From: Thermoplasmata archaeon
GTDB lineage: Archaea; Thermoplasmatota; Thermoplasmata; Lutacidiplasmatales; UBA184
Reading direction: 5' to 3'
Assembly: GCA_028864975.1 (NCBI GenBank)
Contig: JAGWLG010000024.1
Span: forward strand, 1 to 52,970
DNA length: 52,970 nucleotides
In this document: piece by piece, positions 16,606-18,418 of the stretch
Position numbering within the stretch: position 1 is the first letter of the stretch
Layout of the letters: each line of letters opens with the position of its first letter
Notes under the pieces: generated by a model
What the model saw: only the letters and a program-made list of their open reading frames with translations
What the model was told of the DNA's origin: nothing
The model's database searches: none
Made by a program: the position numbers and the translations under genes

Positions 16606-17219
16606 GTCCTGCGCACCGTTCGTTCCTCCCTTCGCCAGGAACAAAGACGTGCGATCCCCGCCAGAACAGGGCAGCCGCCCCGAGACAACCGAAGAGGCAT
16701 CCCCACGAGGCCGCGCACCGTGACGGGCACCTTGTGGCCCGCGAAGGTGCGTCGACCGGTGCGGTCGGACCATCGAGCGGGACCGCAGCCTCAAGGTGGG
16801 TGGGGACCTCGGCTCCGAGTCGCGCGAGAAAGGGATTCCTGAACGGGTTCCCGACGGGGGACGTGGAAGCACGGAAACTGCCCCTCACCTACCGCCATCC
16901 TCTGCAGGGCACCCGCGCGATTCCCGAACGGCGGGAACGGGCATGGGACGCGGTTCGTACCTGCTGGCGCACTTTCGGCTTGCGCAGAGGCCGCCGAAGA
17001 CCCTGCCGGAGGCGTCCCCTCTGAGCTCTGCACCTCGAGACGCGCTCTCGCTCAGCCAGCCCGTGGGGGGCACGAGGAGCGCATGGCCAGTCGCGACCTG
17101 CGCCAGGGTCTTGTCCAACGGGTAAACCTACTCTCGGCAGCTGAGACCCATGGCCGCGGTCCTTGCGTGTTCTTCTTGTGGGCTGTCCCTGTCGTGCCCC
17201 CTCAGGGAGCGGGAGCGCC

Positions 17220-18245
17220 TTGGACCTCTTCACCCACGTGATCTTCGCCTACCTCCTCTCCTTCGTCCTGTGGGGCCCGGCGACCCCGTGGTACATTGCC
17301 GCGGGAGCGATGGCCGGAGGGCTACCGGATTCGGACGTGCTGTTCTATCCGCTGGCCAAGCGGTTCCCGCTCCTGCGGCACCACGGCATCACCCACTCCA
17401 TCCTGGGGGCCACCGCGGTCGCGGGAGCGGGCTCGGTCATCGTCCCGTACATCCTAGCGCCCTTCATCCCCGGGACTCCCACGGACCTCGCCGCGGGGAC
17501 CACGCTCCGCTTCTTCGTCGCGATGCTCCTGGGCGGTCTCTCGCACGTCTTCCTGGACGGCTTCACCCACTTCTCCGTGCCCCCGCTCGCTCCTTTCTCT
17601 CACCGCGAGTTCGCGCTGCACGCCGACCGGGCGATCAATCTCGGCATGACCGCCCTGACGGTCGCGACGCTGGTGACCTTGATCTGGGAGAACCGAAACC
17701 CCTCGGTCGTTCCCGTCTCGCTCTGGATCGAGACGGCGTGGGTCCTCGTGGTGATCTACGGCGGCTACCTCGTGGCCCGCGGGCTCGGTCGATGGCGGGC
17801 GGGAGAAGCGAGGGCGAGCGGGGGCTACTCGGCCGTGATCCCTACGGGCAATCCCGTCGTGTGGTTCCTTGTGGACGAAACGATCACTCCCGAGAGGTAC
17901 CACCTCCGCTACCGTCGGTACGTCCTTGGGAAGGGATACACGATGCCGGAGCGGACCGTCGACGTCGCGAAGTCGCCCCGAGGGACCGGCCCGGTCCTGA
18001 CCCCGCAGGAGGCATTGAACCGCAGCTACGCTCCTGCGATGCAGAAGAACGGCTTCCTGCACTCGAGCTATCACTTCGGCGAGGCCGAGCGGAAGGGAGC
18101 TTTCTTCGAAGTGGTCTGGTACTCGATCGAGTTCGCGATGCTGGGGCGAGCTCCGGGCGTCCGCGTTCGGGTCGAGGCGGAGTCGGGGAAGGTACAGTTC
18201 GTCGGCGGCAACTTCCTGCGTCCCCCCGCGGCCGCGGGGATTTAG
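17220..18245 (+). CDS. Membrane-bound metal-dependent hydrolase (YdjM/DUF457-like)
   Basis: TTG start gives MDLFTH; LPDSD, HHGITHSI and SHVFLD are the conserved metal-binding motifs; several TM helices. Confidence 0.85.
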   Translation: MDLFTHVIFAYLLSFVLWGPATPWYIAAGAMAGGLPDSDVLFYPLAKRFPLLRHHGITHSILGATAVAGAGSVIVPYILAPFIPGTPTDLAAGTTLRFFVAMLLGGLSHVFLDGFTHFSVPPLAPFSHREFALHADRAINLGMTALTVATLVTLIWENRNPSVVPVSLWIETAWVLVVIYGGYLVARGLGRWRAGEARASGGYSAVIPTGNPVVWFLVDETITPERYHLRYRRYVLGKGYTMPERTVDVAKSPRGTGPVLTPQEALNRSYAPAMQKNGFLHSSYHFGEAERKGAFFEVVWYSIEFAMLGRAPGVRVRVEAESGKVQFVGGNFLRPPAAAGI

Positions 18246-18277: not shown

Positions 18278-18283
18278 TTTTAA
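18278..18283 (+). promoter_or_regulatory. TATA box of the tRNA-His gene
   Basis: TTTTAA about 28 nt upstream of the tRNA 5' end. Confidence 0.7.
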
Positions 18284-18310: not shown

Positions 18311-18418
18311 GGCCGGGATAGGGTAGTCTGGCCTATCCTGGGGGACTGTGGATCCCTCGACCCGGGTTCAAAGGACAGCGGGGACCACCCCCGCCGTCGG
18401 AGACTCTCGGTCCCGGCC
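18311..18418 (+). tRNA. tRNA-His(GUG) with encoded G-1 and a 32-nt intron (18373..18404) at position 59/60
   Basis: Acceptor stem GCCGGGA/TCCCGGC plus G-1:C73; D-arm GGGT-AGTCTGGCCTA-TCCT; anticodon arm GGGGA-CT GTG GA-TCCCT; T-stem CCGGG/CTCGG; removing 18373..18404 restores the T-loop TTCAAAT. Confidence 0.92.

What the first reader, a model, noticed from the sequence alone, without database searches (positions are those of the whole stretch)
18311..18418. tRNA-His(GUG) interrupted by a 32-nt intron in the T-loop (position 59/60) with bulge-helix-bulge geometry
Seen: a complete archaeal tRNA-His cloverleaf whose T-loop is split after TTCAAA by 18373..18404. The junctions form T-stem CCGGG/CTCGG, a central helix TTCA/GGAG (three pairs plus one A.G), 3-nt bulges AA|G and AC|T, and an intron hairpin GAC-A-GCGGGG/CCCCGC-C-GTC. 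Cutting after the second bulge base restores TTCAAAT exactly. Known: most archaeal introns sit at 37/38; non-canonical introns are mainly described in Thermoproteales and a few lineages with broad-specificity splicing endonucleases. Inference: this probable Thermoplasmata host needs an EndA able to cut an imperfect BHB at a non-canonical site. The intron also interrupts the tRNA 3' half that integrases often target. Default tRNA scans may miss this gene.
Basis: partly seen in the sequence, partly recalled or inferred. Interest (0 to 1): 0.8.

Follow-up and report, generated by a model that had tools for sequence, protein, structure and literature searches.

The report
Histidine tRNA gene with T-loop intron
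This is the only detectable histidine tRNA gene of an uncultured soil archaeon (class Thermoplasmata). A 32-base protein-spliced intron of a known kind interrupts its T-loop, and the one unexpected point is that the genome encodes only the splicing enzyme type that the literature describes as limited to standard introns.

Summary
Window 18311-18418 (+) is a tRNA-His(GUG) gene with an encoded G-1:C73 pair, split between A59 and U60 by a 32-nt intron (18373-18404).

- **Detection.** ARAGORN and Rfam miss the unspliced gene. Removing the intron gives a 76-nt tRNA-His.
- **Junction.** The predicted junction GTTCAAA|TCTCGG equals the T-arm of intronless tRNA-His genes in other Thermoplasmata.
- **Conservation.** The intron sits at the same site in 33 of 36 other genomes of the family. 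Exons are nearly invariant. Eight of ten pairs of the intron hairpin show compensatory changes.
- **Single copy.** No second tRNA-His was found in the genome.
- **Geometry.** The layout is 3-4-3 hBHBh', but the central helix has three standard pairs plus A57.G, and thermodynamic folding does not predict it.
- **Wider pattern.** At least 8 tRNA genes in this genome have 59/60 introns, and family genomes have 4-14 model matches each.
- **Enzyme.** The only EndA is a two-repeat alpha'2 protein with no insertion at the CSL site. RtcB is present.

The scan has already found this same tRNA-His intron in several other genomes, and other T-loop introns in this genome. It is a new member of a known kind.

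The parts
18278..18283 (+). A/T-rich TATA-like box (TTTTAA), 28-33 nt upstream of the tRNA 5' end
   Evidence: Sequence. An A/T-rich box sits at the same distance upstream of tRNA-His in the relatives, within otherwise GC-rich flanks. Promoter function is inferred.
18311..18372 (+). Exon 1 of tRNA-His(GUG): G-1, acceptor 5' strand, D-arm, anticodon arm (GTG at 18348-18350), T-stem 5' strand (18362-18366) and T-loop positions 54-59
   Evidence: ARAGORN call on the spliced sequence. Nearly invariant across 34 aligned genes.
18367..18370 (+). Exon strand of the BHB central helix (U54 U55 C56 A57)
   Evidence: Pairs with 18399-18402. U-G, U-A and C-G are kept in 28-31 of 31 distinct sequences. A57 faces U in 10 and a non-pairing base in 21.
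18371..18373 (+). 5' three-nucleotide bulge A58 A59 | G, with the 5' splice site between 18372 and 18373
   Evidence: Geometry. The junction is fixed by intronless orthologues.
18373..18404 (+). 32-nt intron at tRNA position 59/60
   Evidence: Deletion restores the tRNA. Present at the same site in 33 of 36 other family genomes, with variable sequence.
18374..18398 (+). Intron hairpin h' (10 stacked positions with one A.C mismatch, 5-nt loop 18384-18388)
   Evidence: Part of the MFE fold. 8 of 10 pairs have compensatory changes on both sides, and 89.9% of cells are paired.
18399..18402 (+). Intron strand of the central helix (GGAG)
   Evidence: N-G-A-G is conserved in an otherwise variable intron.
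18403..18405 (+). 3' three-nucleotide bulge A C | U60, with the 3' splice site between 18404 and 18405
   Evidence: Geometry. The junction is fixed by intronless orthologues.
18405..18418 (+). Exon 2: U60, T-stem 3' strand (18406-18410), acceptor 3' strand (18411-18417), discriminator C73 (18418). No encoded CCA.

Best explanation
This is a functional, single-copy tRNA-His(GUG) gene whose T-loop is interrupted between A59 and U60 by a 32-nt archaeal (protein-spliced) intron.

Proposed mechanism:
1. In the precursor, the T-stem, T-loop nucleotides 54-57 paired with GGAG near the intron's 3' end, and the intron's own hairpin form a helix / 3-nt bulge / 4-position helix / 3-nt bulge / helix structure.
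2. This is the same local shape as a canonical 37/38 intron: a 5-bp stem carrying a 7-nt loop, with the intron between loop nucleotides 6 and 7.
3. The genome's single homodimer-type (alpha'2) EndA cuts after the second nucleotide of each bulge.
4. RtcB joins the halves, restoring the T-loop UUCAAAU.

Shown: gene, intron position, conservation, hairpin covariation, and presence of the enzymes.
Inferred: transcription, cleavage by this EndA, and ligation.
For: - The spliced sequence is called tRNA-His with the G-1:C73 identity pair, and the unspliced gene is invisible to ARAGORN and Rfam.
- The predicted junction is identical to the T-arm of intronless tRNA-His genes in other Thermoplasmata.
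- The intron is at the same site in 33 of 36 other family genomes across 7 genera, and also in G055 and G040 of other families.
- Exons are almost invariant while the intron varies.
- 8 of 10 hairpin pairs show compensatory changes, and all five measures exceed 500 of 500 shuffles and all slid controls.
- The three intron bases that pair with U54-C56 are conserved.
- No other GUG anticodon arm in a tRNA context, and no other His-like BLAST match, exists in the assembly.
- A conserved A/T-rich box lies about 30 nt upstream.
- EndA with the Tyr/His/Lys motifs is present, and so is RtcB.
- Seven other tRNA genes of this genome have the same layout at 59/60.
Against: - There are no RNA data, so splicing is inferred.
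- The central helix has only three standard pairs plus A57.G. ViennaRNA does not predict it: pair probability is below 0.5%, and the BHB is 3.2 kcal/mol less stable than an open 7x7 internal loop.
- The literature states that alpha'2 EndA needs a strict 3-4-3 hBHBh' motif (PMC3239211). A. fulgidus alpha'2 EndA hardly cleaved a BHB intron in a D-loop (PMC3241643).
- The genome is 89.6% complete, so an unassembled second tRNA-His or EndA subunit cannot be excluded for this genome alone.
Confidence: 0.9

Rival explanations
1. The precursor is spliced at 59/60, but not through a classical BHB read by EndA alone. The junction would exist as an open internal loop between the T-stem and the intron hairpin. 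It would then need either an unrecognised adaptation of the alpha'2 EndA, a helper protein or RNA modification, or induced fit to form the helix.
For: - Folding does not form the 3-pair central helix in the His, Asp, Ser-GGA and Ser-GCT precursors.
- Position 57 faces a non-pairing base in 21 of 31 distinct tRNA-His sequences, and in 5 of 8 T-loop introns of this genome.
- A sister genome (G038) carries 13-14-nt T-loop introns with no intron helix at all.
- The literature says alpha'2 enzymes are narrow (PMC3239211, PMC6379350).
Against: - The 3-4-3 spacing is kept exactly in all 8 genes and in all His orthologues.
- The intron bases opposite U54-C56 are conserved.
- The Ala, Asn and Gly precursors with four full pairs fold as strict hBHBh'.
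- No second endonuclease-family gene appears in any of the 59 relatives with a match.
- Nearest-neighbour models do not score bulge stacking, A.G pairs or protein binding.
Confidence: 0.07
2. It is a disrupted, non-functional tRNA-His copy (a pseudogene carrying an insertion), and the working tRNA-His lies in the unassembled 10% of the genome.
For: The genome is 89.6% complete. The gene is not recognised by standard finders.
Against: - The same interrupted gene is the only His-like match in family genomes that are 95-100% complete, for example G006 and G004.
- Exons are invariant across 7 genera while the intron drifts with compensatory changes.
- The promoter-like box is conserved.
- No other GUG arm in a tRNA context was found.
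Confidence: 0.02
3. The 32-nt insert is an assembly or binning artefact.
For: None beyond the fact that the genome is a fragmented assembly (124 contigs).
Against: The insert is found at the same site, with diverged sequence, in more than 30 independently assembled genomes.
Confidence: 0.01

Closest known systems
59/60 introns of Candidatus Micrarchaeum acidiphilum ARMAN-2: pre-tRNA-Pro(GGG) (strict hBHBh' at 53/54 and 59/60) and pre-tRNA-Cys(GCA) (13-nt hBH at 59/60) (Fujishima et al. 2011, PMC3239211)
   Same: The intron is at exactly the same tRNA position in the T-loop. It has a BHB-type junction built from the T-stem and T-loop nucleotides. The gene is invisible to simple tRNA finders.
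   Different: ARMAN-2 uses a three-unit epsilon2 EndA with a specific loop and demonstrated broad specificity. Here the only EndA is a two-repeat alpha'2 protein without such an insert. The host is Thermoplasmata, not DPANN.
Non-canonical-position BHB introns of Thermoproteales and other TACK archaea, where 59/60 is a recurrent site (Sugahara et al. 2008 and Fujishima et al. 2010, cited from my own knowledge and not read here)
   Same: Same position, short length, BHB junction, and many tRNA genes affected per genome.
   Different: Those hosts have heterotetrameric (alpha-beta)2 EndA with the Crenarchaea-specific loop (PMC3241643, PMC5829648). This lineage lacks both.
Canonical archaeal tRNA intron at 37/38 with a strict hBHBh' motif, cut by alpha4 or alpha'2 EndA (A. 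fulgidus EndA-RNA complex, PDB 2GJW)
   Same: The local architecture is identical: a 5-bp stem, four loop nucleotides pairing with the intron, 3-nt bulges, and cuts after the second bulge nucleotide. The EndA type is the same, aligning end to end with 1R0V/2GJW at E 2e-25.
   Different: It is located in the T-arm instead of the anticodon arm. The fourth central pair is A.G in this gene.
A. pernix pre-tRNA-Thr2 D-loop BHB intron (Hirata et al. 2011, PMC3241643)
   Same: A BHB intron outside the anticodon loop.
   Different: That substrate was hardly cleaved by wild-type alpha'2 A. fulgidus EndA and needed the CSL insert. The present lineage keeps T-loop introns in essential single-copy tRNAs without a CSL.

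Membership tests
tRNA-His | Cloverleaf with GUG anticodon | tested here: met
   ARAGORN calls tRNA-His(gtg), 76 nt, on the spliced sequence. Stem pairs are 100% standard in the acceptor, anticodon and T stems across 31 distinct sequences.
tRNA-His | Extra G-1 paired with C73 (histidine identity element) | tested here: met
   G at 18311 pairs with C at 18418. The pair is G-C in 31 of 31 sequences.
Archaeal BHB (hBHBh') tRNA intron | Two 3-nt bulges separated by a 4-bp central helix | tested here: inconclusive
   The 3-4-3 spacing is exact, but the helix has U-G, U-A and C-G plus an A57.G mismatch. The helix is not predicted by ViennaRNA. Same-genus relatives have U opposite A57, giving 4 full pairs.
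Archaeal BHB (hBHBh') tRNA intron | Flanking helices h (exon) and h' (intron) | tested here: met
   The T-stem is 100% paired. The intron hairpin is 89.9% paired, with compensatory changes at 8 of 10 pairs.
Archaeal BHB (hBHBh') tRNA intron | Cuts after the second nucleotide of each bulge yield a functional mature RNA | tested here: met
   The product T-arm GTTCAAATCTCGG equals that of intronless orthologues. No other junction gives this sequence.
Archaeal BHB (hBHBh') tRNA intron | Host encodes the EndA endonuclease and the RtcB ligase | tested here: met
   EndA: PF01974 and PF02778, two copies each in one 374-aa ORF on contig C53. RtcB: PF01139, 565 bits, on C104.
Archaeal BHB (hBHBh') tRNA intron | Intron is actually excised in vivo or in vitro | not testable with these tools
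   No RNA data or enzyme assay is available.
Broad-specificity EndA ((alpha-beta)2 or epsilon2 architecture, or the specific loops CSL/L1, ASL/L2, L3) | Heterotetramer or three-unit architecture | tested here: not met
   There is a single gene with two tandem N+C repeats. 59 of 61 genomes (G000 plus 60 relatives) have the same single two-domain open frame and no extra paralogue.
Broad-specificity EndA ((alpha-beta)2 or epsilon2 architecture, or the specific loops CSL/L1, ASL/L2, L3) | Insertion with a key Lys at the CSL site of the catalytic unit (A. fulgidus E174-L178 region), or a C-terminal L3 insert | tested here: not met
   The catalytic repeat aligns with A. fulgidus SEKGDL and with M. 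jannaschii EndA without insertion. A. pernix alpha has about 10 extra residues there. There is no C-terminal insert relative to 1A79. Loop sites are as described in PMC3241643 and PMC5829648.

The most novel reading that the evidence does not exclude
A loop-less, homodimer-type (alpha'2) splicing endonuclease routinely and accurately removes non-canonical T-loop introns. These include ones whose central helix is imperfect (A.G) and, in a sister lineage, 13-14-nt introns lacking the inner helix.

This would contradict the published rule that only (alpha-beta)2 and epsilon2 enzymes, or enzymes with specific loops, process non-canonical introns. It would mean one of two things. Either the 59/60 site is tolerated because the T-arm mimics the anticodon arm, or this Thermoplasmata EndA carries an unrecognised specificity determinant.
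Probability: 0.6. Interest if true: 0.55.

Novelty: new member of a known kind. Interest (0 to 1): 0.4.

Why it matters
For annotation: tRNA-His, and at least seven other tRNAs of this genome, are missed by ARAGORN and by the Rfam tRNA model. Genomes of this soil Thermoplasmata family will therefore look as though they lack essential tRNAs unless an intron-aware archaeal search is used.

For biology: the textbook correlation between EndA architecture and intron position does not hold in this lineage. A whole family keeps 4-14 T-loop introns per genome, including in single-copy essential tRNAs, with only an alpha'2 EndA that lacks the known specificity loops. This gives a concrete, easily testable substrate-enzyme pair for asking what really limits 'narrow' endonucleases.

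The individual gene itself is an ordinary example of a documented intron type.

Tried and rejected
- **Standard finders.** ARAGORN and Rfam on the unspliced window found nothing. ARAGORN with -i on the genome gave mostly spurious long-intron calls, including a false tRNA-His with a 2733-nt intron on C39, so I did not use it for the census.
- **ARAGORN as register test.** It accepts many deletion registers, so I rejected it for fixing the splice site and used intronless orthologues instead.
- **Whole-precursor MFE.** It does not give the cloverleaf and is uninformative.
- **Integrated element at the tRNA.** No att-like repeat of the 3' exon beyond chance (3 matches against 1.27 expected). The flanking ORFs tested show no integrase domain; the only Pfam matches are a YdjM-family hydrolase upstream and a Kelch/PKD-repeat protein downstream.
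- **Lineage-specific insert in the catalytic repeat.** An apparent 6-residue difference from A. fulgidus is a deletion in A. fulgidus, because M. jannaschii and M. kandleri align without a gap. Rejected.
- **Literature.** Searches for T-loop or non-canonical tRNA introns in Thermoplasmata found no report in the held library. This is not proof that none exists.
- **Full census not attempted.** I did not run a SPLITS-like census of all intron positions. The D-loop introns noted by earlier readers were not re-tested.

Full report
**Observation**

The window is contig C93 of a 3.6-Mb, 124-contig assembly, 89.6% complete.
- G-1 is at 18311, the acceptor 5' strand at 18312-18318, and the anticodon GTG at 18348-18350.
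- The D-arm has A14, G18G19 and A21.
- The T-stem CCGGG (18362-18366) can pair only with CTCGG at 18406-18410.
- Between them lie TTCAAA, 32 extra bases (18373-18404) and T18405.
- The acceptor 3' strand and C73 end at 18418. No CCA is encoded.

ARAGORN finds no tRNA in the whole window. Rfam finds none at gathering score, or at E<=10 on the local stretch. After deleting 18373-18404, ARAGORN calls a 76-nt tRNA-His(gtg). ARAGORN tolerates neighbouring deletion registers, so it does not fix the junction. What fixes it is that intronless tRNA-His genes of other Thermoplasmata read GTTCAAATCTCGGTCCCGGCCC. In this gene only a 59/60 junction gives that sequence.

**Is it real and functional?**

A BLAST search of 60 relatives found the interrupted gene, intron included, in 33 of 36 other genomes of the same family, spanning 7 genera. 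One further copy is cut by a contig end, and two genomes had no match. One of the 33, G028, is unpublished. I left it out of the alignment and no claim depends on it.

In the 34-sequence alignment the exons are almost invariant, while the intron is the variable part. Counting pairs on the proposed structure gave these results:
- The acceptor, anticodon and T stems are 100% paired.
- The intron hairpin is 89.9% paired, and 8 of its 10 pairs change on both sides.
- All five measures exceed 500 of 500 shuffles.
- The covariation score is 0.139, against at most 0.044 for partners slid by 1-3 columns.
- The intron bases opposite U54, U55 and C56 are conserved: G or A, A, and G, in 28-31 of 31 distinct sequences.
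- The base opposite A57 is U in 10 sequences and a non-pairing base in 21.

No second tRNA-His exists in the assembly:
- None of the 39 Infernal tRNA matches coincides with a histidine gene called by ARAGORN.
- The only GUG anticodon arm in a tRNA context is this one.
- The only other BLAST matches in the genome are the Arg-TCG and Asp genes.
- Family genomes that are 95-100% complete also show only the interrupted gene.

An A/T-rich box (TTTTAA, 18278-18283) lies 28-33 nt upstream. An equivalent box sits at the same distance in the relatives, within otherwise GC-rich flanks. This fits an archaeal TATA-type promoter, although promoter function is inferred.

**Anatomy of the junction**

Reading 5' to 3', the elements are:
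1. T-stem (h).
2. U54-A57 (central helix strand).
3. Bulge A58 A59 | G.
4. Intron hairpin (h', 18374-18398).
5. GGAG (18399-18402, other strand of the central helix).
6. Bulge A C | U60.
7. T-stem 3' strand.

This is the 3-4-3 hBHBh' layout, with both cuts after the second bulge nucleotide. It is positionally equivalent to a canonical 37/38 intron. In both cases a 5-bp stem carries a 7-nt loop and the intron sits between loop nucleotides 6 and 7. This follows directly from the geometry.

The imperfection is real. The helix is U-G, U-A, C-G plus A.G. ViennaRNA predicts an open 7x7 internal loop instead: the BHB is 3.2 kcal/mol worse, with pair probabilities below 0.5%. Same-genus relatives have U opposite A57, giving four full pairs. 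The fourth pair therefore toggles freely and seems dispensable.

**Context in the genome and lineage**

My own scan removed candidate 59/60 inserts between complementary T-stems and then ran ARAGORN. It recovered eight tRNA genes with the same layout: Ser-GCT, Gly-TCC, Arg-TCG, His, Ala-GGC, Asn, Ser-GGA and Asp. Five of the eight have a purine-purine mismatch at position 57. Ala, Asn and Gly have four full pairs and fold as strict hBHBh'.

A covariance model of the T-arm plus intron (R1) found exactly these eight in the genome, with nothing else at E<=1. Across relatives it gave:
- 4-14 matches per genome in all 36 family genomes.
- 1-4 matches in the two other families of the order.
- 0-4 matches in other families of the class.

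I checked 14 matches outside the family by splicing them in silico. Eleven became tRNA calls only after splicing: Arg, Ala, Pro, Leu, Trp, Gly, His and one Sec-like call.

In a sister family of the same order (G037, G039, G042) and in G054, tRNA-His instead carries a 37/38 intron with an intact T-loop. Many other class members have an intronless gene.

**The enzymes**

PF01974 and PF02778 each hit twice within one 374-aa ORF on contig C53. This is the two-repeat alpha'2 architecture.
- It aligns end to end with A. fulgidus EndA (1R0V/2GJW, E about 2e-25).
- The second repeat keeps the Tyr, His and Lys motifs (FRAY, SSHARYLV, VRK).
- At the site where A. pernix EndA carries the Crenarchaea-specific loop (A. 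fulgidus E174-L178, per PMC3241643), the protein aligns with A. fulgidus and M. jannaschii without insertion. A. pernix has about 10 extra residues there.
- There is no C-terminal insert either.
- All 59 genomes (G000 included) with a match have the same single open frame with two domains and no extra subunit.
- RtcB is present.

The nearest EndA loci in public genomes are all MAGs titled Thermoplasmata archaeon, best at 73% identity.

**Comparison with what is known**

T-loop introns at 59/60 are documented in ARMAN-2: a strict hBHBh' form in pre-tRNA-Pro(GGG) and a relaxed hBH form in pre-tRNA-Cys(GCA) (PMC3239211). From my own knowledge they also occur in Thermoproteales. Reviews state that canonical and relaxed BHB motifs occur in D-loops, T-loops and acceptor stems (PMC6379350). 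The kind of feature is therefore known.

What differs is the enzyme context:
- The literature says alpha4 and alpha'2 enzymes need a strict 3-4-3 motif (PMC3239211).
- It says that only (alpha-beta)2 and epsilon2 types cleave non-canonical introns (PMC5829648, abstract).
- It reports that wild-type A. fulgidus EndA hardly cut a D-loop BHB intron (PMC3241643).

Here a loop-less alpha'2 enzyme is the only candidate for removing T-loop introns from single-copy essential tRNAs, some with an imperfect central helix. My literature searches found no report of this for Thermoplasmata.

**Earlier notes of this scan**

The scan has already reported the same tRNA-His intron in several other genomes, and other T-loop introns in this genome, with the same conclusions. 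I re-derived the following independently here:
- the count of at least 8 T-loop-intron genes;
- the alpha'2 call;
- family-wide conservation.

**Verdict**

It is not supported in its inference of a special endonuclease architecture. This is a new member of a known kind. Interest is moderate, and it comes from the lineage-wide mismatch between intron position and quality on one side and enzyme type on the other, not from this gene alone.

Noticed in passing
G038 loci L146, L150, L153, L154, L156 (model R1 hits): A genome of a sister family in the same order carries 13-14-nt T-loop introns, such as TTCA AA|A GTGAAC TGAA AA|T. They have no inner intron helix, so they are a relaxed hBH/BHL-type motif at 59/60. 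The genome's only EndA is the two-repeat alpha'2 form. Three of the five gave a tRNA call after in-silico splicing.
   Followed up: partly
window 18373-18404 versus G000 C119:61584-61615 (L142) and C104:121143-121174 (L141): The His intron is clearly more similar to the Asp intron (alignment score 13; 0 of 2000 shuffles reach it) and to the Ser-GGA intron (score 11) than to the other five T-loop introns (scores of 5 or less). This hints at a common origin or at intron spread between tRNA genes.
   Followed up: partly
L047-L049 (G037, G039, G042) and L045 (G054): In a sister family of the same order, and in a complete 1.5-Mb genome of the class, tRNA-His has an intron at the canonical 37/38 site and an intact T-loop. 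The same tRNA therefore carries different intron positions in related lineages.
   Followed up: no
G000 C53:49166-50143 (L051 1447-2571, minus strand) and relatives: The N-terminal (structural) repeat of these EndAs matches the whole catalytic-domain profile PF01974 (positions 1-85). In G054 it matches only positions 1-23. Relative to A. fulgidus it has about 15 extra residues (PRGGTPSKTPSKWWVE region). The repeat lacks the Tyr/His/Lys triad.
   Followed up: partly
window 17163-18245 (+): The gene just upstream of tRNA-His encodes a YdjM-family membrane-bound hydrolase (PF04307, E 4e-18). The high GC content produces many overlapping spurious ORFs on both strands around the tRNA.
   Followed up: partly
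G000 C2:48495-48606: A possible tRNA-Arg(GCG) was called at 89 nt after removing a 37-nt T-loop insert. Its junction (TTCG/CCCC, bulges AG|A and TG|A) does not fit the BHB layout of the other eight, and model R1 did not match it. It may be a false call or a gene with further introns.
   Followed up: no
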